Source: Mobula hypostoma
Lineage: Eukaryota
Direction: 5' to 3'
DNA length: 64,000 bases
Assembly (NCBI RefSeq): GCF_963921235.1
Contig: NC_086097.1
Span: 34,040,001-34,104,000, forward strand
Below are positions 18,266-60,674 of the stretch, piece after piece; the stretch's first letter is position 1; every line of letters begins with the position of its first letter. The notes under the pieces were generated by a model that did not search any database, was not told the DNA's origin, and worked only from the letters and a program-made list of their open reading frames with translations. The position numbers were made by a program, and so were the translations under genes.

Positions 18266-18413
18266 CACGAGGAAATCTGCAGATGCTGGAATTTCAAGCA
18301 ACACACATCAAAGTGGCTGGTGAACGCAGCAGGCCAGGCAGCATCTCTAGGAAGAGGTACAGTCGACGTTTGGGGCCGAGACCCTTCGTCAGGACTAACT
18401 GAAGAAGTGCTAG
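18266..18413 (-). mobile_element. Penelope-like pseudo-LTR with hammerhead motif (left arm of composite)
   Basis: Minus strand: agtcCTGACGAagggtctcggcccCAAAcgTCgact gtacctcttcctagagatgctgcc...cagcatctgcagatttcctcgtg. Confidence 0.85.
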
Positions 18414-18415
18414 TA

Positions 18416-20458
18416 AAGGCAAATTGAATAGGAATAAGGAACCTTGGTTCTCAAGGGATATTGCAACTCTGATAAAGAAGAAGAGGGAGTTGTATGAAAT
18501 GTATAGGAAACAGGGGGTAAATCAGGTGCTTGAGGGGTATAAGAAGTGCAAGAAAATACTTAAGAAAGAAATCAGGAGGGCAAAAAGAAGACATGAGGTT
18601 GCCTTGGCGGTCAAAGTGAAGGATAATCCAAAGAGCTTTTACAGGTATATTAAGAGCAAAAGGATTGTAAGGGATAAAATTGGTCCTCTTGAAGATCAGA
18701 GTGGTCGGCTTTGTGCGGAACCAAAGGAAATGGGGGAGATCTTAAACAGGTCTTTTGCGTCTGTATTTACTAAGGAAGCTGGCATGAAATCTATGGAACT
18801 GAGGGAATCAAGTAGTGAGACCATGGAAACTGTACAGATTGAAAATGAGGAGGTGCTTGCTGTCTTGAGGAAAATTAAAGTGGATAAATCCCCGGGACCT
18901 GACAGAGTGTTCCCTCAGACCTTGAAGGAGACTAGTGTTGAAATTGCGGGGGCCCTGGCAGAAATATTTAAAATGTCGCTGTCTATGGTTGAAGTGCCGG
19001 AGGATTGGAGAGTGGCTCATGTTGTTCCGTTGTTTAAAAAAGGATCGAAAAGTAATCTGGGAAATTATAGGCCGGTGAGTTTAACGTCAGTAGTAGGTAA
19101 GTTATTGGAGGGAGTACTAAGAGACAGAATCTACAAGCATTTGAATAGACTGGGACTTGTTAGGGAGAGTCAACATGGCTTTGTGCATGGTAGGTCATGT
19201 TTGACCAATCTGTTGGAGTTTTTCGAGGAGGTTACCAGGAAAGTGGATGAAGAGAAGACAGTGGACATTGTCTACATGGACTTCAGTAAGGCCTTTGACA
19301 AGGTCCCGCATGGGAGGTTAGTTAGGAAAATTCAGTCGCTAGGTATACATGGAGAGGTGGTAAATTGGATTAGACATTGGCTCGATGGAAGAAGCCAGAG
19401 AGTGGTGGTAGAGGATTGCTTCTCTGAGTGGAGGCCTGTGACTAGTGGTGTGCCACAGGGATCAGTGCTGGGTCCATTGTTATTTGTCATCTACATCAAC
19501 GATCTGGATGATAATGTGGTAAATTGGATCAGCAAGTTTGCTGATGATACAAAGATTGGAGGTGTAGTAGACAGTGAGGAAGGTTTTCAGAGCCTGCAGA
19601 GGGACTTGGACCAGATGGAAAAATGGGCTGAAAAATGGCAGATGGAGTTTAATACTGACAAGTGTGAGGTATTGCACGTTGGAAGGACAAACCAACGTAG
19701 AACATACAGGGTTAATGGTAAGGCACTGAGGAGTGCAGTGGAACAGTGGGATCTGGGAATACAGATACAAAATTCCCTAAAAGTGTCACACAGGTAGATA
19801 GGGTCGTAAAGAGAGCTTTTGGTACATTGGCCTTTATTAATCAAAGTATTGAGTATAAGAGCTGGAATGTTATGATGAGGTTGTATAAGGCATTGGTGAG
19901 GCCGAATCTGGAGTATTGTGTTCAGTTTTGGTCACCAAATTACAGGAAGGATATAAATAAGGTTGAAAGAGTGCAGAGAAGGTTTACAAGGATGTTGCCG
20001 GGACTAAGAAACTCAGTTACAGAGAAAGGTTGAATAGGTTAGGACTTAATTCCCTGGAGCGTAGAAGAATGAGGTGAGATTTGATAGGGGTATATAAAAT
20101 TATGATGGGTATAGATAGAGTGAATGCAAGCAGGCTTTTTCCACTGAGGCAAGGGGAGAAAAAAACTAGAGGACATGGGTTAAGGGTGAGGGGGGAAAAG
20201 TTTAAAGGGAACATTAGAGGGGGCTTCTTCACACAGAGAGTGGTGGGAGTATGGAATGAGCTGCCAGACGAGGTGGTAAATGCGGGTTCTTTTTTAACAT
20301 TTAAGAATAAATTGGACAGATACATGGATGGGAGGTGTATGGAGGGATATGGTCCGTGTGCAGGTCAGTGGGACTAGGCAGAAAATGGTTCGGCACAGCC
20401 AAGAAGGGCCAAAGGGCCTGTTTTTGTGCTGTAGTTTCTATGGTTCTATGGTTCTATG
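18416..20458 (+). mobile_element. Relatively young 5'-truncated CR1 with 457 open codons of ORF2 RT
   Basis: ORF 18424-19797 has KSPGPD, GNYRPVSLTS, SGVPQGSVLGPLLF and YINDLD..KFADDTK. Frameshifts follow, then an octamer tail (ttctatgg)n ending near 20458. Confidence 0.95.
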
Positions 20459-20518
20459 TACTCTTCCTAGAGATGCTGCCTGGCCTGCTGCGTTCACCAT
20501 CAACTTTTATGTGTGTTG
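20459..20518 (+). mobile_element. Penelope-like pseudo-LTR fragment (right arm, inverted relative to 18266-18413)
   Basis: ctcttcctagagatgctgcctggcctgctgcgttcacca...tgtgtgttg is the reverse complement of about 18299-18357. Confidence 0.85.
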
Positions 20519-22859
20519 TCTGTACTCAATACTTTGATATATGATGGCCAATGTGCCAAAAGCTTTCTTTACAACCTTACCTACCTGTGACACCACTCTC
20601 AAGGAATTATACTTCTGTATACACTGATCTCTCTGTTCTACTGCACTCCTCAATGCCCTGCTACTCACAGTGTAAGTCCTACAGAGCTCTGTCCTCCCAA
20701 AGTGCAACACTTCACACTTGTCTGCATTAAATTCCATCTGCTATTTTTCAGTGCATTTCCCAGCTGGTCCATATCCTGCTGCAAATTATGATAATTTTCC
20801 TTCCTGTCCACTAGGCCCCCAATCTTGGTGTCATCTGCAAATTTACTGATCCAGATTGCCACATCTACCTTCATCTTGAATGCTAGGCGACTGAACCTTC
20901 TTGACCAACCTCCCATGAGGGACTCTGTTCAAAGGCCTTGGTAAAGTCCATGCCTTGCCTTTATTGACTTTTCTGGTAACTTCCTCAAAAAACTCTATAA
21001 GATTGGTTAGACACGACCTACAATGCACAAAGCCATCCTTGTGCTCTTAATCAGTCCCCATCTATCCAAGTACTTATATTTCCGCTCCCTTAAAATAGTT
21101 TCCAATAACTTAGCCACTACGAATGTCAGGCTCACTGGTTTATAATTTCCTGGCTTATTCATAGAGCCTTTTTTAAGCAATAGGACAACATTAGCCATCC
21201 TCTAATCCTCCAGCACCTCTCTCGTGACTAAAGACATTTTAAATATCTCAGCTAGGGCCCCTGCAATTTCTTCATTAGCCTCCTATAGGGTCCAAGGGAA
21301 CATCTTGTCAGACTTTGGGCATTTGTTCCAACTAATTTGCCACAAGACAGTGAAAACCTCCTCCTTTATAATCTGTATTGGGTCCATGACCCCACTGCTG
21401 CTTTGCCTCACATCTATTGACTCTGTGTCCATTTCCTGAGTAAACACAGATGCAAAAAATACATTTAAGGTTTCTCTATCTCTTTCGGTTCCATGCATAG
21501 ATTATCACTTTGATCTTCCAGAAGACCAATTTTGTCCCTTGTAATCCTTGCACTCTTAATATATCTATAGAAGCCTTATAGTTCTCCTTCTCCTTGTCTG
21601 CTAAGCCTACCTTTTGCCTTCTTTTAGTCCTCCTGATTTCCTTCATAATTGTCCTTTTGCAATTCTTATACTCTTCAAGTACCTCATTTGCTCCTGCCGG
21701 CCTATACCCGCTCTGCACCTCCTTCCTTTTCTTAACCATGGCCTAAATATCTCTTGAAAGCCAAGGTGCCCTATTATCCTTGCCTTTTCTTCTGACAGGA
21801 ACATACAAACTCTGTACTCTCAAAATTTCACTTCTGAACGCCTCCCATTTACCAAGTGCACCTTTCCCAGAAAATAACCTGTCCCAATCCACACTTGTCA
21901 GATCCTATCTGATACCACGAAAATTGGCCTTTGTCCAATTTAGAATTTCAACCCAAGGACTAGACTCATCCCTCTTCATAATTATCTTGAAACTGATGGC
22001 ATTATGATCACAAGATGCAAGGTATTCCCCGCTACAAATATCTGTCACCTGACCCGTCTCATTCCCTAATAGGAGATCTAGTACCTCTATGTACTGATTA
22101 AGGAAACCTTCTTGAATGCATTTAACAAACTCTTTCCCATCCATCCCTTTCCTGCAATGCTCCTTGCATTGAAATATACATAACTCAGATCACTAGTCCC
22201 ACCTTTCAATTCCTGACTTTGTATGTAGGCTTAACACCATCTTTCTCCACAACTACTCCACTATCTTCCCTGGAGCTCTGTTTCCCATCCCCCTGCAACT
22301 CTAGTTTAAACCACCCCTTCCCCACCACCTTGTGCTGCACTAGCAAACCTTCTCACTAGGATATCAGGGAAGAGAGCCCATGATCTAAAAATCTAAAACC
22401 CTCTCTCCTGCACCATCTCCTTAGACACATGTTAAACTTGTATGATCTTTCTATTTCTGGTCTCACTAGCACACGGCACAGGTAGCAATTTTGAGATCAC
22501 AACACTGGAGGTCCTGTCCTTTAGCTTAGCACCTAACTCCTTGAACTCACTTTGCAGGACCTCATCACCTCTCCTACTCACGTCATTGGTACTGATGTGG
22601 ACCATGGGAAGAATTGTATGAATAGAAATTTTAACAGGTTAGCTACACAGTTAAATAAATGTGCAAATAACTCCACATATTTTAAAAATGTGAAGAGAAC
22701 ATTCAGCAGAGTGAGATTTAGAAAGGAGCTAGATAATGCAGCAGAGCAATTAAAAAATTTAATAGAAACAGGAGTAGGCCCTTTAACCTCCCTCAAGTCT
22801 CTCACTGCTCATTTTTCTTCAATTACCCAATTCAGGTCAGGGCTTTGTGCTCTAGCTCT

Positions 22860-23165
22860 CAGCAGGTTCACGTATGCCAAACAGGTTGAAGGGTAGAGGA
22901 TAATTAAGAGTGGTCCACTGGTCCTCCAGGTTCGGGGTTCAGCTCAGAGCTAACAACCCTGAGTGGTAAAACAAAATTGTTACGGAAAGAGAAATGAAGA
23001 CTCCTTCTACATCTGAGTGTGATGGTATTACTGAGTTTTCACCTGGGGCTTACATGACTGACAGTAGTGAAAACCGAGACGAAGCTACTGGCACAATGAA
23101 AGAGGCTCTGAGCACCAATGGAGGGACTTCATTGCTGCCCTAAATGCTAGCTGTGTAACAGGCAA
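22860..23165 (+). mobile_element. Bipartite RTE-derived short element (5' UTR piece joined to 3' end)
   Basis: ggtcctccaggttcggggttc...ctaacaaccctg...ttgttacggaaa resembles an RTE 5' UTR; ttcattgctgccctaaatgc resembles an RTE 3' end. Confidence 0.6.
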
Positions 23166-23209
23166 AAGACAAGACAATTCCAAAAGAAAATCTGTGTAAT
23201 TTTACTTAC

Positions 23210-23286
23210 CCCTGCTATATGAAGTAATACTCCTCCATGTTGCCTTTCCTTATTGGTAAATAGATCACTTGGAAATTCATGGATAG
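23210..23286 (-). CDS. slc24a4: Internal coding exon of K+-dependent Na+/Ca2+ exchanger NCKX4 (probably equivalent to human exon 3)
   Basis: Minus strand reads ttgttctatttacAG|ct atc cat gaa ttt cca agt gat cta ttt acc aat aag gaa agg caa cat gga gga gta tta ctt cat ata gca ggg|GTaagt. It is 77 nt, phase 1 to phase 0, with canonical splice sites. The peptide (A)IHEFPSDLFTNKERQHGGVLLHIAG matches recalled NCKX4 AIHEFPTDLFSNKERQHGAVLLHILG better than NCKX3 (ALHEFPNDIFTNEDRRQGAVVLHVLC). Flanking exons were not found in the window. Confidence 0.93.
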
Positions 23287-25119
23287 CTGTAAATAGAACA
23301 ACAGGCGTCAAAGAATGTAAAGCATCCTCAGAAATGCTTTTCAAGATATGAAAGAACTATAGGAGATTGCACAAATATTCTAAGGAACATCACAAAAACA
23401 GGACCAATGTTATCACAAGATGTATTTCTGAAATAAACGGGCTGAAGATGAACCATTAACATCTGCTTGGAACAAGCTTCAGTAAATCAAAGCACTAACC
23501 TTTATAAAAGACATACTAGACTTCTGTTGGTTTTTAGAGAAGCTCTCTGTCTATCTGCACTAGGGCTGAGTGCCTTGACTGGAAACACACTCATTTTTGA
23601 TAAAGCAAACTATGTTTCAAATATGCAGTTCGTATTTATATGCACTCCAAACCGACGGTCTACAGTTGTGAATGGTAATTGATGCCACATAAGAGTTTCC
23701 ACTTGTTCTGGGAGTTGGAAATCTGCTGGACAGTTTGAGCACTTGCATTCAGTTTGCAAAATTAAGCAACACTGGCACAGAGGAGACTTACTCTCTGGTG
23801 CAATGATAATAAATTGGAGATTACATTCAATGTCACCAAGGTCAAAGTTGAGTTTACTGTCATATGCCTGATTACACAGGGGCAATGAAAATCTTGCTTG
23901 CAGCAGCGTCACAGGAGCATAGCATCAGATTTGCAACAGTTACGATAAAAACATAAATTAAACAAGTTCTTTAACTTGCAGAATCAAATGAATCTGCAAA
24001 ATCATATTGTGAAGACTAATGTGTACTGCATCTTTGAAAGGATTAAAAGGAATACAAGGACAACTTGGAGGTAACCAAGTTGGTAAAATAAAATAATCAA
24101 ATCAACTGCTAGACTTTTGGAGATAGAAGAGCAAGGAAACAACTGAAAAAATTAGGTCAGAACTTTAAATGCAAGAGTACATGAGGCATCCCAGCAATCC
24201 CTATGGCTAGACACCAATTTGAATACAGCTATTTGTATTATCCAGGATGAATAATTCTTGTCTAATTCTGGCTGAAAACACATCTATGCAGTCAGGATGT
24301 CTTCCCTGAATGACTGTCCAGTTAAATTTTGATGAGTTTGCCTTTGTTGATGTTGCTTTACAAATTGCGATTTTGCAAGGAAGATAGAACTCTCTCCTCT
24401 TGTTGCCAAGGCTTGATCAACTCAAACAACTGTACATTTGGACAAGGTTAAAACAATGAAAGTGGGGTATGGACACTGTTAATTTCAACTCTACTACATA
24501 GCTGGGTGAGTGATACTGACAGTATCTTTACAACTTGATGGGAATCAAGCTGTGAGGTTACAAACCCCAAACCAGGCCTCTTGATCAATATTTCAGAGGG
24601 CAGATTTCATGTAATATGACTTTCATCTGCTTGTATTCTGTGTGAACATAATCAGTGAAATTCCAAGCTGATTACTTGACATGATACTATTTTAATCTGG
24701 CATGCAGTAGAGTCAAGTGGCAAACAATCTGTATTATTTCTCCTCTTTCTAAACTAGAACCACCGAGGTAATTGTTGTGACCATTTACTGATTTGATTGT
24801 GATTACCCAACTGTTATGTTTGTTCTTAATAAAGACAAACTGTGGGTAAAATGCAAGCACATATCTATTGACAGTTAATGGCTTCCAGCTGAACACGATC
24901 CTCTACGAACAGTTCATGGCTTCAGCTCGACCTGAACACGTGCAACCTGCTCCCCAATGTCACTTCTGGTTCCGGGTGAACTGCCCGCATTGCACATTGG
25001 GAACTGAAGTTATTTATTATGTACACACATAATAACACACTGACCAGGCATGAGTTGAGACTTGCCAACATAAATCCATCAATTTTTAAAATGACAAAGA
25101 AGCTATCTGTGTTGTGAAT

Positions 25120-26910: not shown

Positions 26911-27359
26911 ATATTAATATTATTAATATCCCAACCTAGGGATCACACCTTGCAGCCACTGTTCCATTTGAGTTGTGCAGGTGTGTAGTTGCGCCGTAAC
27001 TGAAATGCTCCCATGCACATAGCCTTCCTTGCCATTCAGCTGGAATTTTCTTTTCTATAATGTTTTATTAAAGTGCTGTGCAGTCTTCAGGCCATGAAAC
27101 AATTTCCAGCTCAGAGCAATGGTTGGTCTGCGCAGGTTTAACAAAAACACAGGGAACATTGCTTACTGCTCAGTAATACATGGTACAGAGGTTACAGATT
27201 GAGCCATTGGAAGAACATTTGTTTCTAAAATGACTTTAAGAATTTGCCTAATTTTAGAAAAAGCTTCCATTCATTAATCTATGACAGATACACAGTCGCT
27301 GTTCCTTCATTTTAAGATCATAGTGTTCCGAATTTGCTGACAAAGGAAACAACATTTGC

Positions 27360-27910: not shown

Positions 27911-28922
27911 CATAAACACAGGAGATTGTGCAGATGCTAGAAATCCTGAGCAACACACACACAATGCTGGAGGAACTCAGCAGGTCAGGCAGCATCTAGG
28001 AGCCTCCATATTCAACATACCATTCTCCGCAACTTCCACTATCTTCAAAGGGACCCTACTATCAAACGTACCTATACCTCTCGCCTTCCCACTTTCTGTT
28101 TTCCACAAGAATCCTCCATGATTCCCTTGTCTGCTCATCCCTCCACCCTAATCTCCCTCCTGCTACTTATCACTGCAAGAGGCAGAAGTGCTATACCTGC
28201 CCATTCACCTCCTCCATCACCTCCATTCATTGCCCATCAGTCTTTCCAGGTGAGGTAACACTTCACTGCACATCTATGGAGTTCTCTACTGTATCTGGCA
28301 CTCCCCACGCTGCCTTCTCTACAACGTGAGACCCAATGTAAAATGGGCACGGGTTTGTCGAGCACCTTTGCTCCATCCTCAAAAAGCAAGCTTTTCCAGT
28401 GGTCATTCATTTCAGTTCCAATCCTCATTCCCATTCCGACATGTCAGTCCTGTTACACCATGATGAAGCCACTCTCAGGTTGGAGGAGCAACAGCTTATA
28501 TTACAGCTAGGAACCATTCAACCTGATGGCATAAACATCAACTTCTCCAACATCCAGTAAATTTTCCTCCTCCTCCTTCTGCATTTCCCCCTTACCTATT
28601 CTTCTCACCTGCTTATCACCTTCCCCAGTGCCACTCCTTTCTGTCTTCCTCCCATGGTCCACTCCACTCTCCTATCAGATTCCTGCTCCTTAGCCCTTTA
28701 CCTTTTCCACCTATCACCTCCCAGCTTCTTACTTCAAAGCCCGCCCCCAACCACCTGGCTTCACCTATCATCTTTGAGTTTGTACTCCTTCCCCTCCCCC
28801 CCCTTCTTATTCTAGTATCTTCCACCTTCCTTTCCATTCCTGATCAAAGGACTCAGCCAGAAACATTAACTGTTTATTCCCTTCCATAGATGAGTTCCTC
28901 CAGCATTTTGTGTGTGTTGCTT
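27911..28922 (+). mobile_element. Penelope-like element 3' part (GIY-YIG region + pLTR) with inverted pLTR at its left end
   Basis: Inverted pLTR at 27911-28000, then decayed ORF C-terminus (cagtctttccaggtgagg...actctcaggttggaggagcaacagcttata), a pyrimidine-rich UTR, and a degenerate hammerhead at about 28840-28870. Confidence 0.8.
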
Positions 28923-29039
28923 CATAGCCATCATGTTTTATCTTTCTTTCACTCACTGGATCAATACATTGCTGACAAGGCCAGCATATAATATCCATCC
29001 ATAATTACTCCTGGATGTTTGCGGTGTTCATATGGTAGT

Positions 29040-29585
29040 CATAGAACATAGAAATATTACAGGCCCTTCGGCCCACAATATTGTGCTGACCATGTAAGCG
29101 ACTGTAAAAACTGCCGAGTATTTCCCTACCGCACAGCCCTCTATTTTCCTAAGCTCCATGTACCTATCTCAAAGTCTCTTAAAATACCCTATTGTATCTG
29201 CCTCTACCATCATCACTAGCAGTGCATTCCATGCACCCACCACTCTCTGAGTGAAAAACTTACCCCTGACATCCCCTCTCTACCTACTTCCAAGCACCTT
29301 AAAACTATGCCCCCTCATGTTAGTCATTACAGCCCCGAGAAAAAGCCTCTGGTTATCCACATGATCAATGCCTCTCATCATCTTATACATCCCCATCACA
29401 TCACCTCTCATCCTCTGTTGCTCCAAGGAGAAAAGGCAAAGTTCCCTCAACCTAGTCTCATAAGGCACGCTCTCCAGTCCAGGCAACGTCCTTGTAAATC
29501 TCCTCTGCACCCTCTCTGTGGTATCTACAGTATAGTATCTATAGTATCCTGTAGTGAGGTGACCAGGACTGAACACAGTACTCCA
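29040..29585 (-). mobile_element. CR1 3' fragment
   Basis: ERVQRRFTRTLPGL...LEQQRMRGD; tail catagaacatagaaa. Confidence 0.85.
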
Positions 29586-30040
29586 AGCAATCCACACAAA
29601 ATGCTGGAGGAACTCAGCAGGCCAGGCAGCATCTATGGAAAAATGTACAGTCGACATTTCAGGACGAAACCCTTCAGCAGGACTGGAGAGAAAAGGCTGA
29701 GGAGCAGATTTGAAAGGTGGGGGGGAGGGGAGAGTGAAATGCAAGGCGATAGGTGAAACTTGGAGGGGGAGAGATGAAGCAAGGAGCTAGGAAGTTGATT
29801 GGTGAAGGAGATACAAGGCCATGGAAGATAGAAGAAAGGTGGGGGGGGGGATGGGGAGAGAAGCACTAGAGAGAGGCGATGGGTGGGCAAGGAGATAACA
29901 TGAGAGAGGGACAAGGGGTTGGGAAATGGTGAAGTGGGGGAGTGGAGGCATTACTGGAAGTTTGAGAAATCAATTTTTATGCCCTCAGGTTGGAAGCTAC
30001 CCAAATGGAATATAAGGTGCTGTTCCTCCAACTTAAGTAG
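29586..30040 (-). mobile_element. Penelope-like 3' end and pLTR
   Basis: Same family as 32557-34030; hammerhead variant cagtcCTGCTGAagggtttcgtcctGAAAtgTCgactg at 29648-29685. Confidence 0.8.
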
Positions 30041-30189
30041 TCCGTTGGTTTATGATAGACTTTGGAGGATAAGCTGTCTCTGGTGAAGCAGACGTTTTTA
30101 TGCCAGCCAGCTAGTTTCATGTCTACTATTATTGACACTGACCTTATAATCCAAATTTATTCAACACAAGAAGTAAATTCTCCATCTAC

Positions 30190-30345
30190 AGCACAAGCAA
30201 AATGCTGGAGGAACTCAGCAGGTCAAGTAGCATCTATGAAAGGGAATAAACATTCAAAATTTCCTCCTAATGAAGTGTCAGCCTGAAACATAAATATTTA
30301 TTCTACTCTGTAGATGCTGCCTGACCTGCTGAATTCCATCTGGAT
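30190..30345. mobile_element. Short hairpin Penelope pLTR derivative
   Basis: ggaactcagcaggtcaagtagcatcta and tagatgctgcctgacctgctgaattcc form an inverted pair. Confidence 0.7.
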
Positions 30346-30349
30346 CTGT

Positions 30350-32556: not shown

Positions 32557-34030
32557 GACAAGAGAAAATCTGGAGATGCTGAAAATCCAAGCAACACACA
32601 CCAGATACTGGAGGAGCTCAGCAGGCCAGGTAGCATCTACGGAAAAGAATATAGTTGACGGTTCGGCCGAGACTCTTCAGCATGACTGGAGAAAAAAGAT
32701 GAGGGGTAGAATTAAAAGATGGGGGGAGGGGAGGGAGAAGTACAAGGTGATAGGTGATACCGGGAGGGGAGAGGGATGAAGTAAATATCTGGAAGTTGAT
32801 TGGCGAAAGAGATACAGAGCTGGAGAAGGGGGAGTCTAATAGGAGAGAACTGAAGGCTATGGAAGAAAGAGAAGTGGGGAGGAGCACTAGAGCTAGGCTT
32901 TTTAAAGAAAAGAGGTAAGGGGAGAGAGGGAAATGGGAATGAGGAATGGTGAGGGGGGGCATTACCGGAAGTTCGAGAAATCGATGTTCATGCCATTAGG
33001 TTGGAGGCTACCCAGACGGAATATAAGGTGTTGTTCCTCCAACCTAAGTGTGGTTTCATCATGACAGTGGAGGAGGCCATGGATAGACATAGCAGAATGG
33101 GAATGGAAAGTGGAATTAAGATGGGTGGCCACTGGGAGATCCTGCTTTTTCTGGCAGACAGAGCATAGGTGCTCAGAGAAGTGGTCTCCCAGTCTATGTC
33201 GAGTCTCACCGATATACAAATGACTGTACCAGCAATACCAGACACAATATATGACCTCAACAGATTCAGAGGTGAAGTGTCGCTTCACCTGAAAGGACTG
33301 TTCGGGGCCCTAAGTGGTAGTGAGGGAGGAGGTGTAGGGGCAGTGTTGATGGTAGAGGAAGGGAAGCCCCTTTCTTTGAAGAAAGAGGACATATCCTTTG
33401 TTCTGGAATGAAAAGCCTAATCCTGAGAGCAGATGCGGTGGAGACGGAGGAATTGAGAGAAGGGGGATGGCATTTTTTCAAGTAACGGGGGAAGAGGTAC
33501 AGTCCAGGTAGCTGTGAGAGTCCGTGGGTTTTTAATAGACATCAGCAGATAAGCTGTCTCCAGAGACAGAAACAGAGAGATTGAGAAAGGGGAGGAGGGT
33601 GTCGGAAATGGACCGGGTAAATTTGAGGGTAGGGTGGATGTTGGAAGCAAAGTGGATGAAGTCATGGGTGCAGGAAGCAGCAGCAATACAGTCATTGATG
33701 TAGCATAGGGGAAGTGCAGGATGGCCTCCAGGGTAGGCTAGGAACATAGACCGTGCCACGTAGTTGCCAAATAGGCAGGTATTGCTGGCACCCATATCAG
33801 TGCCCATGGCTCCACCTTTTGTTTGAAGGAAGTGGGAGTAGCCAAAGGAGAAATTATTAAGCGTGAGGACAAGTTCTGCTAGGTGGAGCAGAGTGGAGGT
33901 GGAGTGGTTGGATCTGGTGTCCAGAAAGAAACAAAGAGCTTTGAGTCCTTCCTGGTGGGTGTTGGAAGTGTATAGAGATTGGACATCCATAGTAAAAATG
34001 AGATGATGGGGGCCAGAAAACTTGAAATCA
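32557..34030 (-). mobile_element. Penelope-like element: RT + GIY-YIG endonuclease + pLTR (decayed)
   Basis: MDVQSLYTS...LAELVLTLNNFSFG..QTKGGAMGT...YIND (33532-33990). GIY-YIG region VIYC...LYIGETRHRLGDHFSEHL...LEEQHLIFRLGSLQPNGMN (32962-33288). pLTR at about 32557-32700. Confidence 0.92.
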
Positions 34031-34112
34031 TGTACAGTATCTGAAATACATCTTATGGGAAAATTTGTCTGATGATGAACTTCAATAAAAAAAAAATTAC
34101 AAAAAAAAGAAA
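34031..34112 (+). mobile_element. Poly(A)-tailed retroelement extreme 3' end (possibly L1/Tx1-like)
   Basis: Short block ending aataaa followed by an A-rich tail. Confidence 0.4.
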
Positions 34113-40305: not shown

Positions 40306-40624
40306 AATAATAAATAAAGGCATCCGTTAGTCTTGCGAGACCATGGACCTGTGCCTGGAAAGTCTTCACTCTCCAGGGCGCAGGCCTGGGCAAGGTTGTA
40401 TGGAAGACCAGTTGCCCATGCTGCAAGTCCCCCCTCTCCACAACACCAATGTTGTCCAAGGGAAGGGCATTAGGACCCATACAGCTTGGCACCAGTGTCG
40501 TCACAGAGCAATGTGTGATTAAGTGCCTTGCTCAAGGACACAACACGTTGCCTCGGCTGGGGCTCAAACTCACGACCTTCAGGTCGCTAGTCCAATGCCT
40601 TAACCACTTGGCCACGTGCCCACA
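40306..40624 (-). mobile_element. tRNA-derived SINE with RTE-related body and tail (copy 2)
   Basis: A box TGGCCAAGTGG and a B-box-like GAGTTTGAGCC; short AT-rich tail; TSD tcattcactta (40295-40305 and 40629-40639). Confidence 0.88.
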
Positions 40625-48167: not shown

Positions 48168-48545
48168 TAAACAGGAGACATTCTGCAGATGCTAGAAATC
48201 CAAAGCAACATGCACAAAATGCCGGAGGAGTTCAGCAGGTCAGGCAACAGTTATGGAAATGAACAAGCAGTTGACGTTTTGGACTGAGACCCTTCATCAG
48301 GACTGAGAAGGAAGGGGGCAGATGCCAGAATAAAAAGGTGGGGTGAGGGGAAGGAGGCTAGGTGGAAGGTGATAGGTGAAGCCAGGTGGATGGGAAAGGT
48401 CAAGGGCTGGAGAAGGAATCTGATAGGAGAGAAGAGTGAACAATAGGAGAGAGGGAAGGAGGAGGGGACCCAAGAGGAAGTAATAGGCAGGTGAGAGGAG
48501 GTAAAAGCTAGCGCGGGGAATAGAGGTGGGGGGAGGAGAATATTG
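48168..48545 (-). mobile_element. Penelope-like 3' UTR and pLTR
   Basis: Hammerhead variant cagtcCTGATGAagggtctcagtccAAAAcgTCaactg (48268-48305) plus purine-rich UTR on the plus strand. Confidence 0.8.
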
Positions 48546-51461: not shown

Positions 51462-51507
51462 TAATAATAATGATGACGATGATGATGATAATAATAATAA
51501 TAAATAA
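51462..51507 (+). repeat. Compound (AAT)/(GAT) microsatellite
   Basis: ataataataatgatgacgatgatgatgataataataataataaataa. Confidence 0.9.
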
Positions 51508-51699: not shown

Positions 51700-52240
51700 A
51701 AAAGTCATTGGGTTATACAGCATAAAAATGGGCCCATGAACATATAAGATTTTGCTGATGCTGGAAATTCTGAGTAACACACAGAAAGCTCTGGTGGAGC
51801 TCAGCAGGTCAAACTGCATCTATGGAGAGGAATTAAGAGTCGACATTTCGCACCAAGACTAAAATGGGCCTTTGGGCTCAAGGTATCCACAGCAACCAAT
51901 GTGCCAGCCTGAGCTAGTCCCATTTACCTGCATTTGGCTCATATTCCTCTACCTGCCTTTATCACATCCTCTAGAAGCGTGTTTCATATACCCACCACAC
52001 TCTGTGTGAAAAAACTCACTCCTCAGTTTTCATTTAAATCTTTCCCTGATCACCTTAAACTTTTACCCTTTAACTTCAGACTCCCTTATCCAAGGCAAAA
52101 AGACTCTGACCTTGGTGATTTTATAAATCCCTGTAAGGTCACCCTTTAGCCTCCTTCTTTAGTCAGAAAACAACCGCAGCCGATTCAGTCACTCCTTACA
52201 ACCCAAATCCTCCAGTCCTAGCAACATCCTTGTGAATGTT
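51700..52240 (-). mobile_element. CR1 3' fragment interrupted by a Penelope pLTR piece (about 51738-51860)
   Basis: CR1 tail broken by gatgctggaaattc...ctcagcaggtc...gtcgacatttcg; aaaatgggcc occurs on both sides of the insert. Confidence 0.65.
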
Positions 52241-52817
52241 TTCCTCATTTCCTTGTTAAATTCCTGGTTCAGTGAATTTATTGAAGTTGAACTAGCATCT
52301 TTATGTCCAGTCAGCAGTCTTTACGTTTTCTCACCTAATGACACTTGTAAACCAATGAGTAGTTGACTTATTTATTTACTTACAGGACAGTACAGAGCTT
52401 AGCCCTGTAAACATAGCTTGGGTGCCTACGGTGTTTTCACAGCACTGTATTTCTCTCTGTGGAATAGAGAGCGAGTTTGTAAAGCTGGTGGGAGCAAGGA
52501 ATGGTGGAAATGGCAAGGGTGGAGTGTCGCAGGAGGAGTGTGGGATTGGAGGCATAGTAGGAATGCTGGAGTGGGTGCAGTCACAGGAAAGGTCATTTGA
52601 TTCCAAACAATTGGTTTGTTAATAATTACAGAATGTCTCTCTGGTCCTCCCTTCCCCTTGCCCATCCCCTTTTCTCTACCATAATTCCCCTCTCCCTGCC
52701 CCTTCCCACTCTCAGTCCACAATAGAGACCCATATCAAAATCAGGTTTATCATCACGTACCTACATCATGAAGTTTGATTCTTTTTATGGCAGCAGTAGA
52801 GTGCAATACATAAAATT

Positions 52818-52886
52818 ACAATACTGTGCAAAGGTCTTAGGCTCCCTAGCTATATACATGTGTCAAAGATTTTTGCACAGCACTGT
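52818..52886. mobile_element. Tiny Tc1-type MITE (hairpin)
   Basis: caatactgtgcaaaggtctt and aagatttttgcacagcactg are imperfect inverted termini. Confidence 0.7.
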
Positions 52887-52889
52887 TTT

Positions 52890-53185
52890 TAGTGATACAG
52901 CATGCGCAGGCCCTTCTGGCCCTTCGAGCCATGCTAAACCAGCAACCCTCGACAAACCTGATTAACCCTAACAATTGGCACGGGACAATTTACAATGACC
53001 AATTAACCTACCCAGTACGTCCTTGGTATGTGGGAGGGGATTGGAGGACCCATAAAAACCCACTCATACTATGGGGAGGACGTACAGAGACTCCTGACAG
53101 GATAGTGCCAGAGTTGAAGTCCGAACTGTGGACACCCGAGCTGTAATAGCATTGCGCTACTTGATATGTTGCCATGGCACCCACG
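52890..53185 (-). mobile_element. V-SINE (HE1-like)
   Basis: gggacaatttacaatgaccaattaaccta...gtgggagg...ggggaggacgtacagagactcc: reverse V-domain with a CR1-like tail. Confidence 0.7.
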
Positions 53186-54444
53186 AGGGAGGCAGGAAAG
53201 CAGGGAGGCTACACTAGAACCTTTTACATTTTATAGGCCGCAGCCTGAGTTCCAACCCACCTGACCTGACCAGAACGTACTAGCCAGGGTCCAGAGGAGT
53301 TCTGTGTGGAAGACTGCAAATTGTAGCTCTGAGGAAAATTGTAATAAATTCGAGCTGTTTTCTTTGCAACACAGGACACTGAGGAAAGACTTGACTGGCC
53401 CATCTGATAATGAGGGCAGAGATAATATAAACAGGGAGGGACCCATTTCCCCTGGTGGGTTTCAGGTCAAAAACAAGGCATGGATTTAAAGTAATTGATG
53501 GAAGGATTAAAAAGGACATGAGGAGAAAGATTTTTTTCCCCACACAAAGGGGAAATGAACACTGTGTTGTTGATGCTCTCATTTTTAGTTCTGAATCCTT
53601 CAATGTAAATTAATTTTGTAACAACCATTTTTTTTGGAAATCCATAGCTACTGCTTGGTGTTAATATTAAGCTCCTGCTTTTAAGAAAACAAAGAAAGTA
53701 ACAGCTCGTCAAAATCAGGTTTATTATCGCCGGCATGTGTTGTGAAATTTGTTATCTTAGCAGCAGCAGTTCAATGCAATACATAATATAGAAGAAGAAA
53801 AAATAATCATAATAAATAAAAATGTAAATCAATTATATAATGAATAATGAGAAGATTTTTTATTACAGTTAATCATGATAGTTAGCCATTTAGTCACATC
53901 CTTCCTAGTTTATAATCCATACAAGTTAGGAAAATACTCGTCATATCTATTGATTTAATGCAGGAATAACAAATAGCGGAGGGATTTCAGAATAGAGGTG
54001 CTGTACTTTTTTTATTATTTGAGGCTTTGGAGTTCTGTATGCTGTGAACTTATGGGTCCTTAGTATAACTTTATATAGTGCAAGTAATTGCATCATAGTG
54101 TTTAACTTTCTTATCACTCCTATTATTTGATTTTCCAAAAACAGTTATTTTCTATGTCACCAAATGGAGTGAAGCCAATTGGCCCTTCAAATTTATGTTA
54201 GGTCTCAAAGTATTTCCATCAGTCACATTCCTGCCCATTAGCTGCTCCTTGGATCTCCAGCCACTAGGGGCAATCTACAGTCACCAATTGACCTCATGTC
54301 TTTGGCAGCACCCAGGGGAAATCCCATGCTGACTCAACGAGAACAATGGAAATCCCAGACAGACAATGCTGGAGGTTCGGACTGAATCTCGAATACTGGT
54401 ACTGTTCGGCAGCTGCTCTACTGGACCACTGTGATCTTTTGTCT

Positions 54445-54579
54445 CACACATCAAAGTTGCTGGTGAACGCAGCAGACCAGGCAGCATCCCTAGGAAGAGG
54501 TACAGTTGACATTTCAGGCCGAGACCCTTCGTTGATGTGTGTTGCTTGAATTTCCAGCATCTGCAGAATTCCTGTTGTT
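54445..54579. mobile_element. 135-bp Penelope pLTR insertion with internal inversion
   Basis: Perfect 15-bp TSD tgtgatcttttgtct (54430-54444 and 54580-54594). Left part is an inverted pLTR; right part is the forward pLTR end. Confidence 0.9.
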
Positions 54580-55345
54580 TGTGATCTTTTGTCTGCCTGG
54601 TTGCCGCTTGCAAAGTAATTATTGGAGGTTTATATTATTATAAAGTATTGGAAGTTATGGTCATTGTGAGTGAGCATATTCCTTCTTCAATGTGAGTCAC
54701 TGTCAGAAGAAACTCTGATCCACACAGTCGTTACCTCCTGACCATCCCAAAACTCTTTTGTTTGTGCTGCCCCATCTTGCATTCTCCGTAACGTTTGGCT
54801 CATCCAAAGACTTTCAGCAGCTTATTCTGTTTCACACCATGTCTTACTTGGCTGCCACTGTAACCTCACAAAATCTGCAATGGCTACCACTCCCTCGACG
54901 TTTGAAAGTGAAAATGATCAAGCTCGAGGTTAAATGATTTTCTAGCTTTGCTGCTCACGGTTGGTGTAACATTCTCCTCCTGACTTATAAATTCTCCCCA
55001 CTTTCCTTTGATTTTAGGCTCATAAGGCTTCCTTCACACCTTGTCAAAAATATTATTCATTATTCAAGGCTTAATTACCATTGGCAAGACCAACATAATT
55101 CACAATCTTGACAAGAAGGTGCTGAGACACCTTCAAGTGTTTTATACTCCAGGTACAAGCTGTTGGTTGAGGATTTCAGGATTCAGACCCAGCAACAATG
55201 AACGGTCCAGGTTAGGATAGTGCCCGACCTGAAGGCAAACAACTGCCCCCACTGAGCTAAGGCTGGCAGAGATGTGCCACAGGAACAAGCTGTCAAAATA
55301 GGCTAGATAAATGGATGGCTTGTTCATATTACTGGTCAAACTGCG

Positions 55346-57505
55346 AAGTAAAATTTATTATCAGAGTACGTACATGTCACCACATAAAACCCTGAGATTC
55401 TTTTTCTGCTGGCATACTTAGCAAATCTATAGAACAGTAACTGTAAACAGGAACAGAATAAATAAATAACAATAAATAATGAGCATGAAGTATATAATAG
55501 TCTGTAAATGAGTGTAGTTATCCCCTTTTGTTCAATAGCCTGATGGTTGAGGGGTAGTAACTGTTCTTGAACCTGGTGCTGTGAGCCCTGAGGCTCTTGT
55601 ACCTTTTACCTGATGGCAGTAGCAAGAAAAGAGCCTGGCCTGGGTGGTGAGGATCTTTGATGATGGATGCTGCTTTTCTACGGCAACATTTCATGTCGAT
55701 GTGCTCGATAGTTGGGAGGGTTTTACTCGTGATATACTGGGCCGAATCCATGACCTTTTGTTGCATTTTCCACTCAAAGGAATTGCTGTTCCCATACCAA
55801 GCTGAAATGCAGCCAGTCAGCACTTCTATAGAAGTTTGCCAAGGTTTTTGATGATATGCCGAATCTCCACAGACTTCTGAGGAATAGAGGTGCAGTCGTG
55901 CTTTCTTTGAAATTATATTTACATGATGGGTCCAGGACAGGTCCTCTGAGATGGTGACTCCCAGAAATTTAAAGTTACTGACGCTCTCCACCTCTGATCC
56001 TTCAATGATTACTGGCTCATGGACCTCTGGTTTCCCTCTCCTGAAGTCCACAATCAGTTCCCTGGTCTTATTGATATTGAGCGAGAAGTTGTTATTACAC
56101 CACCCAGTCAAATTTTCAATCTCCCTCCTGTATGTTGATTCATCACCCCCTTTGATGCAGACAACAACAGTGGTGTCGTCAGTAAACTTGTACATGGTGT
56201 TGGAGCTGAACTTAGCCACACAGTCACAGGTGTAAAGTGAGTAGAGCGGGGGGCTAAGTACACCTCCCTGTGGTGCTCCAATGCTGATGGAGATTGTGGA
56301 GGGGATGTTTTTGCCAATCTGAACTGACTGGAGTCTAGAAGTGAGGAAACCCAGGATCCAGTTGAGGGCCAGGACTTGGAGTTGACTGATTAGTTTTGAG
56401 GTGATGATTGTATTAAATGCTAAGCTGTAATCGATAAAGAGCTTCCTGATGTATGCATCTTTGCTGTCCAGATGTTCCAGGGATGTGTGAAGAGCCAACA
56501 AGAAAGCACCTGCTGTAAACCTGTTGATTCAGTAGGCAAAATGGAGCAGGTTCAAGTCGCCACTCAGACAGGAGCTGATATGCTTCAACACCAGCCTCTG
56601 CAAAAACCCTTCATCACTGTGGATGTAAGTGCCACTGGGCGATAGTCATTTCGACAGGTTACCATGCTCTTCTAGGGTGCTGCTACGATTGAAGCCTGCT
56701 TAAAGCAGGTGAGTACCACATACTGCCGGAGCAAGAGGTTGAAGATATCGGAAAATACACCAGCCAGCTGGTCAGCACAGGTCTTCAGTACTCAGCCAGG
56801 TAATCTGTCCGGAGCGGATGCTTTCCTTGGATTTGCTCTCTTGAAGGCAGCCCAAAAGATCATTTGGGAGACATGGGGGTGTGCGATGTTTCCTCCCTGT
56901 TCTGGTGGTCACAGTGAACGTAGAATGAATTCAGCTCATCAGAAAGCGAAGCTCTACTGTCCACTATGTCACAAGATTTAGCTTTGTAGGAAGCTATGGC
57001 ATTCAAACCCTGCCAAAGCTGTCAAGCATCCCTCGTTGATTCCAGTCTAGTCTGGAATCTCCACTTTGCCCGAGAGATAGCTTTCTGGAGATCGTACCTG
57101 CACCTCTTGTAGCATTCTTGATGTCCAGACTTGAATGCCTCTGATCTGGCTCTCAGCAGGTTCCAGATTTCATTGGACATCCAGGGCTTCTGTTCGGGGT
57201 AAACCCTGAATGATTTTGTGGGGACACTCTCATCCACAGCTATTTTAATAAAGTCGGTAACCATCCTGGTGTAGTCATTTAGGTCCTCAGACGAGGTTTT
57301 GAACACGGCCCAGTCCACTGACTCAAGGCAATCCTGTAACCGTTCCTCTGCCTCCCGCGACCGCCTCTTGCTTTTCTTGATTTCTGGAGTCTTGGTCTTA
57401 AGGCTCTAACTGTATGCATATAGCTAACTGATGCGACTTGCCAAAATGTGATCTCAGCGAGGAAGAACAGGCATTCCTTATCATAGTGTAGCAGTGGTCT
57501 ATTGC
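55346..57505 (-). mobile_element. Rex1/Babar LINE, 5'-truncated, with a 327-codon RT/C-terminal ORF
   Basis: ORF 55518-56501: LFIDYSLAFNTI, GAPQGGVLSPPLYSLYT, YKFTDDTTVV, FKFLGVTISEDLSW. Upstream YPEQKPWM (57022-57318). Confidence 0.93.
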
Positions 57506-59898
57506 GCTTGAAATACTTTTTCTTAAATTTTCAAAAATAAACTTTGGTCATAAAATGTATTTACAGAAAAAACAGTGCAAAGCCATTTACATTCTTAGTG
57601 TCACTTGGTCAATACATTCAATCGTATTAATGATTGTTTATTTAAACCATGGCACCATTGCCATTCATGTGGCCCTGTTGAGGTAATAAACCTATTCATA
57701 AATTGGAGGGCTTCTCCACACGACTCAACCCCTCTGGCAAGTAGCAGGAGGAGCCGAGACTGCAATCCATCCCCACAGAGCCCCTGCATTCGATTACACA
57801 TCCACAAATCTGAATTTTACTTATTTAACCTACCCACCACCCCTCCTCCCTCATTTCCTCCTGTAATACACATCATACTTTTGGTCACCAAACATGTCCC
57901 ACATCTGACAATCTGTTGCTCTGTCATTAAGAAAAAAATTAAAGAGTGTATGAAATGCTCTGATGCATTTTTCTGCCTCATAAAGGCATGTTATGCTGCT
58001 AAATAAACTTAGCTGTAAGAAATCAATTACAACTATTCCAAATTGATAGTTCATGGTAAAATAGTTTAATTCGATTATACTCTATTATGTCAATCCATTA
58101 AAATGAGTGAAATACATTGTGATGATGGGTGCTTTAATTTTTGAATAATTTAGTATATATACAATCAGTATAATCACCATTGCCTTCAAATTCCTCTTTA
58201 AATTGTACACTCTCCTAGGGATATGCATCCACACGCAATAATCATTGTTGGATTTAAACACCCTACCCAGCAATGCTGATTTAGACCCTGAAAAACTGCA
58301 GTGGTTCAAGAAGGCAGCACATCACTCCTGTCTTGAGCATAGTTTAGTAAAATGTACAGATACTGACATCCTGCCACTCAATCAAAAAAGAAACATCACT
58401 CTGTATATCTGCTGACATACTTGACAGAATGACTAATAGTTCACATTAAGAGTTTAATGTCTTATTGTTTAACGTGCTTGTGTAACATATTACAAATAAT
58501 GAGAAATCTTATTTGCTTTCATGTGATTATATCCCTGCAGTCTGAGTACGACTGAACAAAAAAGTAAGCCAAACAAACAGCTTCCAAGGGCAAAGGATGC
58601 ATTGTCCGTGAAATACTGTGGTATCACGCTAATCAAATGACTCAAGGCCTCGTGATTTTTATACAGCTTCGTAAGAAGTTGCACTTCTTTCAAGAGAAAT
58701 GCTGTAATAAAAGTCTTTTCATACTTAACACTAATAAGTAGTTAGCTGGAAAATAAAGATGAATTTATTTCTAATATGAGGAAAGAATGTTTGGGAGTTC
58801 TGGCACAGCTCAGTGATGATTATATTGAATGGTGGTTCAGATCTGACGGGACCTACTCCTTCTCCTGTTCTGTTTTTGAGCCAGCGATGGCTCAGCTTCA
58901 TGAAAACCATCTCACATAGAGCTGTAATTGGAGAAACAGAAGGATTCTGTGGATCACGTACAGCAACCGTCTTTGTTCACCTTGGCAAGTTTACACAGAT
59001 CAAAAGAACCATGACTTAATTACCAAATAGAGTTTCACATGTTATCACATCACAAATAATGGACCCAGGGAAATATCCTCTGGGATAACTCTGAAGAATT
59101 TACATCTTTCAAAATTTAAGCGGGGTAAACATTTTTTAAAAAGGAGCTGAAGGGTGTTACTATAGACAATTTGCTGCTCTAATGTGTAGCTCGAAGTTGC
59201 AAATGATTTGTGCCAGGGCTGAAATACCCCATTTTGGTCTTGCACAACAAATTAATTCAATGGATGAAGAGGGTATAAGATGTGTTGCAGTGTGGAACAT
59301 TCTGAGGTACTAAAGTTGAATTTTAGTGGAGATTGTTTCAGAGGACAGGTGGAAAAGAAACAAAATCCTTGCCTTTTGTCTGTTCTTAATAGATTCTGAA
59401 ACAAGCCATACACTGAAGCAGCCCCGAATCTGTTGTAATAGATGAATGATGATTAGCAGGTAACTTCCCCACAGGAGAGGTTTCACACTGTGCTGAAGAA
59501 CGTTCCCAGGAGACGAATGTAGTCTCCACATACAGTGTATGTTAACTAATAGTTGATGAGGAAAGAGTTTGAAGTCCTAAAGAGAATACTTTGTCAAAGT
59601 AAATGATAAAGAGTCTTCTTCAAATTCATTCAACTTGATTGAATCTTAAAGCAAATTACACAGCCAGCCACACAGCTCTTACGGATTCCATACTGACAAA
59701 ACCCGACTTTGCAGCTGCCACTGAAATTTGCATTTAAACAAAGACAGCTTTCCAACAATGCTGGACACATCGTGCATTTGCATTCAGCCATTCACCAGAT
59801 GAAGTGCAGGATGGGTATTTTATAAATTCCTATGTTATAAAGGTCAGCCTAAAAGGCTGGGATTCAGAATATTGAGATATACAAAATCCTAAAAGTAG

Positions 59899-59977
59899 AG
59901 TCTCGGCCTGAAACGTCGACTGCACCTCTTCCTAGAGATGCTGCCTGGCCTGCTGCGTTCACCAGCAACTTTGATGT
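59899..59977 (+). mobile_element. Short Penelope pLTR insertion (5'-truncated hammerhead)
   Basis: gtctcggcctGAAAcgTCgactgcacctcttcctagagatgctgcc; possible TSD aagtag (59893-59898 and 59978-59983). Confidence 0.8.
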
Positions 59978-60061
59978 AAGTAGCAACTAGATTGCTTATT
60001 CCTCAGAAAGGAATTCTGGAACTGCTGGATGCAGTTGGCTATTTTGGTCTGGACTCATAGA

Positions 60062-60348
60062 TAACGTTCCCTCTAAGGTGTGTGCATGTGCACGCACACA
60101 CATCTTTTGCTACTAGCACACAATGGAGTTTACCTTTACCTCGATAACATGTTACGTATACAGCATTTCACAATCGTGCACAATCACATTTCCTTTTCCG
60201 ATTTCTGATGCGGACGGTGTTGACAACGTGGAGTTTGTGCAGACTTTAGAACTGGCTTATTTATGCTGTTTTTATTGAGGAAATTATTCAGTGTGCCTAG
60301 GACAAGATTTTTGTGCACACTGGTCATTACAAATTAGAAGGAACATTG
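60062..60348. mobile_element. hAT-superfamily MITE
   Basis: TIRs taacgttccctctaa and ttagaaggaacattg; 8-bp TSD ctcataga / ctcattga (7 of 8 match). Confidence 0.8.
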
Positions 60349-60392
60349 CTCATTGAGCTGTGAATCTTTGGAAATGGTCCTCCTCTCAAGGC

Positions 60393-60674
60393 AAACACAA
60401 GGAATTCTGCAGATGCTGGAAATTCAAGCAACACACCTCAAAGTTGCTGGTGAACGCAGCAGGCCAGGCAGCATCTCTAGGAAGAGGTACAGTCGACGTT
60501 TCAGGCCGAGACCCTTCGTCACCCCCACCGATGACCCCTTCTCCCGTCTTCAACCCTCCTCCTCTACATGGACACCCCGCTCTGGTCTTCTGCCTGCTCT
60601 GGATCTCTTTATTGCTAGTCCTGATGAAGGGTCTCGGCCTGAAACATCGCCTGTACCTCTTCCTAGAGATGCTG
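60393..60674. mobile_element. Penelope-derived mini-element: two inverted pLTR arms around a short ORF-like fragment
   Basis: 13-bp TSD ctcctctcaaggc (60380-60392 and 60675-60687). Arms at 60393-60521 (-) and 60616-60674 (+). The centre reads PTDDPFSRLQPSSSTWTPRSGLLPALDLFIA, resembling the N-terminal region of the Penelope ORF. Confidence 0.88.
60617..60652 (+). ncRNA. Minimal type I hammerhead ribozyme motif (best-preserved core in the window)
   Basis: agtc CTGATGA agg-gtctcgg-cct GAAA ca TC gcct. Both core boxes and stem II are intact; two substitutions relative to the family consensus (cgTC gact). Confidence 0.7.

What the first reader, a model, noticed from the sequence alone, without database searches (positions are those of the whole stretch)
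18361..60652. Dispersed family of minimal hammerhead ribozyme motifs in Penelope pseudo-LTRs
Seen: related motifs at 18361-18396 (-), 29648-29685 (-), about 32652-32688 (-), 48268-48305 (-), about 54503-54531 (-), about 59900-59921 (+), 60491-60521 (-) and 60617-60652 (+), with more decayed copies near 6900, 28840, 30265 and 63105. Their consensus agtc-CTGAYGA-agg(N7)cct-GAAA-cg-TC-gact gives stem I agtc/gact, both catalytic boxes, a 3-bp stem II, an almost absent palindromic stem III (ACGT) and a GUC cleavage triplet. Established: Penelope-like elements carry such minimal type I hammerheads, thought to cleave as dimers. Inference: this genome holds many of them, several on the slc24a4 pre-mRNA strand. 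Every copy here has at least one lesion.
Basis: partly seen in the sequence, partly recalled or inferred. Interest (0 to 1): 0.7.

Follow-up and report, generated by a model that had tools for sequence, protein, structure and literature searches.

The report
Decayed Penelope hammerhead motifs in SLC24A4
These are broken end-pieces of a very common Penelope-type jumping gene inside introns of the SLC24A4 gene, likely of a ray; they carry the small hammerhead RNA motif already known from such elements and likely do not cut the host RNA, so the finding is mostly ordinary.

Summary
All eight named motifs are present and belong to one repeat family: the end repeat (pseudo-LTR) of a Neptune-type Penelope-like element (PLE). 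In the window one motif lies about 280 nt behind a decayed RT + GIY-YIG frame. The genome has 87,121 matches to the intact core (control 21). The motif fits the published minimal PLE hammerhead. The host gene is SLC24A4 on the minus strand; six of the eight copies are on its pre-mRNA strand and all eight are damaged. Intact copies show no sense-strand depletion (10 vs 11 in 1.06 Mb; low power). Two changes are inherited from source elements, not decay: G10.1-U11.1 in the youngest wave (32,886 exact copies) and A6C in an older subfamily (95 of 100 listed). A6C is known to impair cleavage in Mg2+. Cleavage was not tested. The scan has reported this motif, and A6C in this genome, on other DNA before. 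Verdict: new member of a known kind, low interest.

The parts
18361..18396 (-). Hammerhead motif in a solo pLTR piece (18264-18415); G12 changed to C; on the pre-mRNA strand
29648..29685 (-). Hammerhead motif of the A6C subfamily, with a stem II mismatch and a changed palindrome; the end of a PLE frame lies upstream at 29954-30043
32652..32688 (-). Hammerhead motif of the A6C subfamily with several further lesions (C3, A15.1, 1-nt loss in stem II), in pLTR 32558-32730
32965..34047 (-). Decayed PLE coding remnant: RT part 33361-34047 (62% to the L048 protein) and GIY-YIG part 32965-33342 (79%), directly upstream of the motif at 32652
48268..48305 (-). Hammerhead motif, G12 changed to A plus stem changes, in pLTR 48170-48349
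54445..54579 (.). One short insertion with an inversion: minus arm 54445-54532 carries a motif truncated inside the first box, plus arm 54532-54579 carries the tail; flanked by a 15-bp direct repeat (54430-54444 and 54580-54594)
   Evidence: read from the sequence
59893..59985 (+). 5'-truncated pLTR piece lacking the CUGANGA box
60393..60521 (-). Young pLTR piece (96% to L048) starting at U4; lacks C3 and the 5' strand of stem I
60510..60615 (+). Fragment of the PLE coding frame between the two inverted motifs
60617..60652 (+). Motif with both boxes intact but a broken palindrome and a stem I mismatch; antisense to the gene
27915..28924 (.). Old PLE: inverted pLTR arm 27915-27998 (-), linker and GIY-YIG remnant 28001-28557 (+), decayed motif in pLTR 28792-28924 (+)
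6891..6990 (+). Old decayed pLTR piece
30189..30347 (.). Two old pLTR pieces back to back (30189-30263 -, 30265-30347 +)
51739..51859 (-).
23210..23286 (-). SLC24A4 (NCKX4) coding exon, the only one found in the window; AG/GT borders; 26 of 26 residues identical to the ray protein P0001

Best explanation
The motifs are minimal type I hammerhead sequences in the end repeats of a Neptune-type Penelope-like retroelement, left in SLC24A4 introns as truncated, mutated copies that likely do not cut. Shown: the motif sits about 300 nt behind the stop of an RT + GIY-YIG frame; insertions are 5'-truncated, often inverted, and end at two points about 35-40 nt apart; the motif is conserved between subfamilies but decays at about the background rate after insertion. 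Inferred mechanism: in the source element the motif is a gated ribozyme. As a lone RNA it is predicted to fold into an inactive rod in which the first box pairs with the cleavage triplet, and it has no stem III of its own. It would cut after GUC only when two copies pair through the ACGU palindrome or when the element's protein assists. Reverse transcription likely starts about 65 or 105 nt 3' of the cut site and runs through it, so the template is uncut or re-ligated and fast cleavage is likely not needed for spreading.
For: PLE link: a 770-aa frame (in frame with a further 293 aa behind one stop) with RT (Pfam E 2e-4), a CX4CxxC linker and GIY-YIG (E 2.5e-3), and the motif 297 nt after its stop; the same order in the window at 32558-34047. 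Copy number: 87,121 core matches, control 21; 32,886 and 4,891 exact 36-mers, controls 0. Anatomy matches PMC4209133: extra nucleotide between 9 and 10.1 is A in 72 of 72 core-intact copies; palindrome CG in 46 of 72, and 21 more are single CpG-type changes. Between 7 flank-defined clusters, identity is 97% in the core, 94% in stems, 75% at N7 + loop II, 60% upstream, 74% and 87% downstream. After insertion, core columns differ in 33 of 420 cells against 96 of 1,040 in invariant flank columns. 3' ends: 27 of 61 young copies at +55 to +79 and 32 of 61 at +100 to +124, none between. 47 of 61 start 12 nt or more upstream of the cut and 1 starts exactly at it. Only 10 of 100 core-intact copies have a same-strand partner within 5 kb. 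Intact copies: 10 sense, 11 antisense. Monomer rod fold. Protein-assisted cleavage that is dispensable in vitro was shown for an Anolis PLE (PMC11167929).
Against: No cleavage was measured. Both Pfam matches are below the curated cut-offs. Rfam finds no hammerhead. Two-sided covariation is almost absent here: one A-U to G-C change in stem I among 72 copies; other variation is one-sided. The computed active dimer (-9.5 and -14.7 kcal/mol) is far less stable than alternative duplexes (-28.3 and -32.1), and in 220 nt of context the U11.1 motif's stems are not predicted to form (P<=0.002). The youngest wave lacks the G10.1-C11.1 pair that PMC4209133 calls highly conserved. The one direct pair I fetched was two separate truncated copies, not a full pLTR-ORF-pLTR unit. 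Clusters are small (4-28 copies; 86 of 326 aligned hits) and the profile included the motif itself.
Confidence: 0.85

Rival explanations
1. In these lineages the motif is kept as a folded signal (for protein binding, template recognition or a pause in reverse transcription) and is no longer a working ribozyme.
For: An older subfamily spread with C at core position 6: 1,653 matches on a tight flank pattern, C in 95 of the first 100 listed, and 20 of 30 with sense PLE coding remnants upstream. A6C cut the rate of a test hammerhead to 3.55e-6 per min in 0.3 mM Mg2+ (PMC7151607). The youngest wave has G-U at 10.1-11.1. 20 of 61 young copies start between -40 and -1, that is within or at the edge of the motif. 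Catalytic mutants did not affect insertion in vitro (PMC11167929). Naiad PLEs spread without hammerheads (PMC8557442).
Against: Ten of 11 core columns are invariant across 7 clusters while N7 and loop II vary, which is the pattern expected of selection on catalysis. Natural A6C hammerheads keep low activity (PMC3088659). The clusters that amplified most have A6.
Confidence: 0.3
2. The motifs are a separate non-coding retrozyme or SINE-like family that spreads through hammerhead-cut RNA circles.
For: Many copies are short and carry no coding sequence. Tandem retrozymes derived from PLEs exist in a chondrichthyan (bioRxiv 10.64898/2026.07.22.740005, passages).
Against: 5' ends are staggered from +54 to -2013, and 18 of 61 young copies reach the PLE frame. 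The window has no tandem array of the unit. Only 1 of 61 copies starts exactly at the cut.
Confidence: 0.05
3. Some copies have been co-opted as intronic ribozymes that cut or process SLC24A4 pre-mRNA.
For: Six of the eight named copies are on the pre-mRNA strand. Conserved intronic hammerheads exist in mammals (PMC3088659, passage).
Against: None in the window is intact; across 340 kb of the gene only 1 sense copy passes the strict descriptor, outside the window. Orientation in the gene is even (31 sense, 34 antisense). Decay runs at about the background rate.
Confidence: 0.02

Closest known systems
Minimal hammerheads (min-HHR) in pLTRs of metazoan Penelope-like elements (Cervera and De la Pena 2014, PMC4209133; parts 1-2 of 4 read, two of three supplementary files searched)
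   Same: Type I, stem I of 4-5 bp, no real stem III, palindromic 15.2-16.2, extra nucleotide between 9 and 10.1, located in the pLTR, mostly single copies on truncated elements, some pairs on opposite strands.
   Different: Copy number is about ten times the largest reported there (87,121 core matches against about 9,000 in Xenopus; methods differ). Stem II is 4 bp. The youngest wave has G10.1-U11.1, and one subfamily has A6C.
Poseidon PLE of Anolis carolinensis, PAc (Frangieh et al. 2024, PMC11167929; parts 1-2 of 4 read)
   Same: Hammerhead in the pLTR; two end points 30-40 nt apart downstream of the motif (tail); templates that span the cut site.
   Different: The element here has a CX4CxxC linker (Neptune/Nematis type), not the Poseidon layout; nothing here is tested in vitro.
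Small PLE-associated hammerhead variants that cleave as dimers (Lunse, Weinberg and Breaker, RNA Biol 14:1499; seen only as a citation in PMC6765202; text not held)
   Same: Diminished stem III and dimer cleavage, as summarised in the review passage.
   Different: I could not check whether shark or ray sequences, A6C or U11.1 forms are among its examples.
Natural A6C hammerhead of phage Bcep176 (PMC3088659 passages; PMC7151607 part 1 of 4 read)
   Same: Same core substitution.
   Different: There a single phage ribozyme; here inherited by thousands of retroelement copies with a minimal architecture.

Membership tests
Penelope-like element (EN+) | Single frame with RT followed by a C-terminal GIY-YIG endonuclease | tested here: met
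   L048 and L049 frames of 770 and 790 aa; RVT_1 E 2e-4 and 7e-4, GIY-YIG E 2.5e-3 and 1.7e-3, below curated cut-offs; decayed in the window
Penelope-like element (EN+) | Inverted 5'-truncated copies and an optional 30-40-bp tail | tested here: met
   15 divergent, 3 convergent and 5 direct pairs within 5 kb among 100 copies; two clusters of 3' ends; window examples at 27915, 54445, 60393
Penelope-like element (EN+) | Tandem arrangement giving pLTR-ORF-pLTR | tested here: inconclusive
   L048 has a pLTR tail fragment ahead of the frame and a full pLTR after it; no complete unit with two direct motifs among the loci fetched
Neptune/Nematis clade | CX2-5CxxC linker between RT and EN, CCHH motif in EN (definition from PMC8557442) | tested here: met
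   CX4CxxC and the EN cysteine pair found, histidines read; no tree was built, so Neptune against Nematis is inferred
Minimal type I hammerhead | CUGANGA and GAAA boxes, A15.1-U16.1, H17 | tested here: met
   87,121 genome matches against 21; not met in the A6C subfamily or in 7 of the 8 named window copies
Minimal type I hammerhead | Stems I and II pair; palindromic 15.2-16.2; extra base between 9 and 10.1 | tested here: met
   Pairing in 58-68 of 72 copies per pair; extra A in 72 of 72; little two-sided covariation
Minimal type I hammerhead | G10.1-C11.1 pair | tested here: inconclusive
   C11.1 in 6 of 7 cluster majorities, but U11.1 in the dominant youngest wave (32,886 against 4,891 exact copies)
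Minimal type I hammerhead | Self-cleavage after NUH as a dimer or with protein help | not testable with these tools
   Needs an in vitro assay; no raw RNA reads were available
Non-LTR retrozyme | Non-coding, fixed-length units in tandem, each with a hammerhead | tested here: not met
   Staggered 5' ends that run into the PLE frame; no tandem array in the window

The most novel reading that the evidence does not exclude
Ray Penelope lineages amplified to thousands or tens of thousands of copies with hammerheads weakened in the source element (A6C; G10.1-U11.1) while the rest of the motif stayed conserved. The PLE hammerhead would then be selected mainly as a slow or protein-gated fold rather than a fast cutter, and these subfamilies would be a natural allelic series for testing what the motif does in retrotransposition.
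Probability: 0.35. Interest if true: 0.55.

Novelty: new member of a known kind. Interest (0 to 1): 0.25.

Why it matters
Minimal hammerheads in PLE end repeats have been in print since 2014, so the core observation is ordinary. Two additions have some value. The scale is large: at least 87,000 core-intact motifs, about one per 40 kb, apparently tolerated on the sense strand of introns. And core or stem variants are inherited by whole subfamilies, which bears on the open question of whether PLEs need the ribozyme to cut (PMC8557442 calls its function unclear). My literature searches found no paper on this motif in cartilaginous fish (partial), but a 2026 preprint sampled one chondrichthyan and the Lunse paper could not be read.

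Tried and rejected
Rfam scan of the window: no hammerhead family at E<=10. Fold z-scores of six motif copies: not informative. PDB sequence search with the PLE protein: one chance match at E 0.14. Pfam on six decayed window frames of the PLE: no family. Idea that the CCT form is only CpG decay of CCC: rejected; the mirror-image decay product has 1,121 exact copies against 32,886. Idea that copies start at the cut site: 1 of 61 does; four more at -3 or -4 are inversion junctions in the palindrome and are ambiguous. Sequencing runs: no RNA holder listed; four runs of other organisms, kept as contigs and only guessed to be RNA, hold the pLTR but cannot show ends or strand. A direct pair 3.6 kb apart proved to be two separate truncated copies. 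The candidate near 63105 was not recovered. A search for measured effects of G10.1-U11.1 gave nothing usable, so its effect on rate is unknown to me. The orientation test covers 1.06 Mb only, 230 kb of about 546 kb for the third gene. File 1 of the PMC4209133 supplement and the preprint's supplements could not be searched and may list shark or ray motifs.
Full report
Observation. They are the front part of one dispersed repeat of about 180 nt. A profile refined on genome copies finds 21 pieces in the window, 20 at E<1e-3, against a best E of 0.047 in the reversed window. Three of the four 'more decayed' places are confirmed; 63105 is not. A strict descriptor (both boxes, 4-bp stems I and II, palindrome) finds no intact copy in the window. 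The lesions are: G12 lost at 18361 and 48268; C6 plus stem changes at 29648 and 32652; 5' truncation at 54503, 59900 and 60491; palindrome and stem I changes at 60617. Rfam does not recognise the motif, and short folds are not more stable than shuffles.

What the repeat is. The window's frame at 32965-33309 has about 179,000 first-look candidates in the genome. Two of the longest matches are frames of 770 and 790 aa with RT and GIY-YIG similarity below Pfam's cut-offs. In L048 a further 293 aa lie in frame behind one stop; the protein has a CX4CxxC linker, which marks Neptune/Nematis PLEs by the definition in PMC8557442 (passages read). The motif lies 297 nt after the stop. The window shows the same order in decayed form at 32558-34047 (-), 27915-28924 and 29579-30043, and a young rearranged copy at 60393-60675. 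Among 61 young copies (88% or more identical) in 1.46 Mb, 3' ends fall in two groups, 27 at +55 to +79 and 32 at +100 to +124 from the cut site, with 2 earlier. This is the PLE tail described in PMC11167929 (parts 1-2 of 4 read). Among the first 100 core-intact matches on contig 1, pairs within 5 kb are 15 divergent, 3 convergent and 5 direct.

Scale. The pattern with both boxes and the GUC triplet has 87,121 matches, control 21. Two exact 36-mers give 32,886 (U11.1) and 4,891 (C11.1), controls 0. Forty 10-kb stretches taken at fixed positions on ten large contigs hold 59 profile hits and 9 strictly intact motifs, which extrapolates to roughly 500,000 pLTR ends and 80,000 intact motifs. One young element covers 4.7% of that sample by BLAST.

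Anatomy. The motif has all features of the minimal PLE hammerhead of PMC4209133 (parts 1-2 of 4 read). In 72 copies chosen only for intact boxes and family flanks, the base after A9 is A in all 72, each stem pair forms in 58-68, and the palindrome is CG in 46. Two-sided covariation is almost absent in this genome. The structural case therefore rests on conservation: across 7 clusters defined by flanks alone (86 of 326 aligned hits; the rest lacked flank coverage or fell in two clusters of 1-2 copies), identity is 97% in the core, 94% in stems, 75% at N7 and loop II, 60% upstream and 74-87% downstream. Within three older clusters the core differs from its majority in 33 of 420 cells and invariant flank columns in 96 of 1,040, so there is no clear protection after insertion.

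Inherited variants. U11.1 is not just CpG decay: the mirror-image decay product has 1,121 exact copies, and 27 of 28 copies in the youngest cluster have U. C at core position 6 has 2,816 matches, control 6. In the subfamily defined by its upstream flank (1,653 matches), 95 of the first 100 listed have C, 3 T and 2 A (counted by eye). Twenty of 30 fetched members have sense PLE coding remnants upstream, and the majority base at the other core and stem positions is canonical. The window copies at 29648 and 32652 resemble this subfamily in their flanks. A6C lowers cleavage strongly in Mg2+ and less in Mn2+ (PMC7151607, part 1 of 4 read; PMC3088659, passages). I found this variant before consulting the scan's notes; the notes show it was already reported for this genome.

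Host gene. An exon 94 kb beyond the window matches NCKX4 proteins best from rays (94%, 92%, 91%), so the genome is likely a batoid. The exon at 23210-23286 (-) is identical to the ray protein over 26 residues, and exons 1-2 lie about 160 kb past the window's right end on the same strand. The whole window is inside SLC24A4, and minus-strand copies are on the pre-mRNA strand. In 1.06 Mb from this gene and two NCX-like genes, intact motifs are 10 sense and 11 antisense, motif-covering copies 81 and 100 (p 0.18), all pieces 122 and 148 (p 0.13), and intact against the rest gives Fisher p 0.82. The spans of the two NCX-like genes are inferred from their first and last domain matches, and power is low.

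How it likely works. A lone copy has no stem III and is predicted to fold into a rod in which the first box pairs with the cleavage triplet. Published work shows low dimer activity for such motifs (PMC4209133) and protein-assisted cleavage that is not needed for insertion in vitro (PMC11167929). Here 47 of 61 young copies begin 12 nt or more upstream of the cut and 1 begins exactly at it, so the template was uncut or re-ligated; these data cannot tell the two apart. Only 10 of 100 core-intact copies have a same-strand partner within 5 kb. I infer a gated ribozyme in source elements and inert copies in introns. Against this, the computed active dimer is much less stable than other duplexes, and the stems are not predicted in a longer context.

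Comparison and verdict. This is a member of a class described in 2014. Searches for it in cartilaginous fish returned nothing relevant, the 2014 supplement was searched only in part, a 2026 preprint includes one chondrichthyan (part 1 of 5 and passages read), and the Lunse paper was not available. The scan holds 60 earlier findings with the same key words in at least 20 genomes; these are unchecked notes and not support. Novelty: new member of a known kind. Interest 0.25; 0.55 if the weakened-core reading holds (probability 0.35).

Noticed in passing
window 18403-19794 (+): 464-aa open frame with a reverse transcriptase domain (Pfam RVT_1 E 6e-36), CR1-like by recall; the PLE piece at 18264-18415 abuts it.
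   Followed up: partly
window 55521-56528 (-): 336-aa frame with a reverse transcriptase domain (E 8e-12), a different LINE family; related pieces at about 10400, 31450 and 42110.
   Followed up: no
window 54430-54594: A 135-nt PLE end with an internal inversion, flanked by a perfect 15-bp direct repeat that looks like a target-site duplication.
   Followed up: partly
window 8331-8556 and 9235-9462: Local duplication about 900 nt apart (85% over 142 nt) that includes a very old pLTR piece.
   Followed up: no
window 11726-11941 and 40409-40624: Two 216-nt copies, 96% identical, of a young short repeat; family not identified.
   Followed up: no
window 3775-3892 and 4400-4517: 118-nt inverted repeat, 96% complementary, 507 nt apart, inside a LINE 5' region.
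   Followed up: no
G000:C1:34063287-34263642: The SLC24A4 intron between exon 2 and the window's exon is about 200 kb long.
   Followed up: yes
L055:4234-7620: Three motifs in direct orientation within 3.4 kb, two of them exact C11.1 36-mers 1.3 kb apart; a candidate for a cis dimer.
   Followed up: no
cluster 7; G000:C1 about 34128400 (+): A small subfamily with a different loop II; one copy has a compensatory A-U to G-C change in stem I.
   Followed up: partly
genome-wide: Inversion junctions of young copies often fall inside the motif, several at the palindrome around the cut site; 20 of 61 young copies start within or at the edge of the motif.
   Followed up: partly
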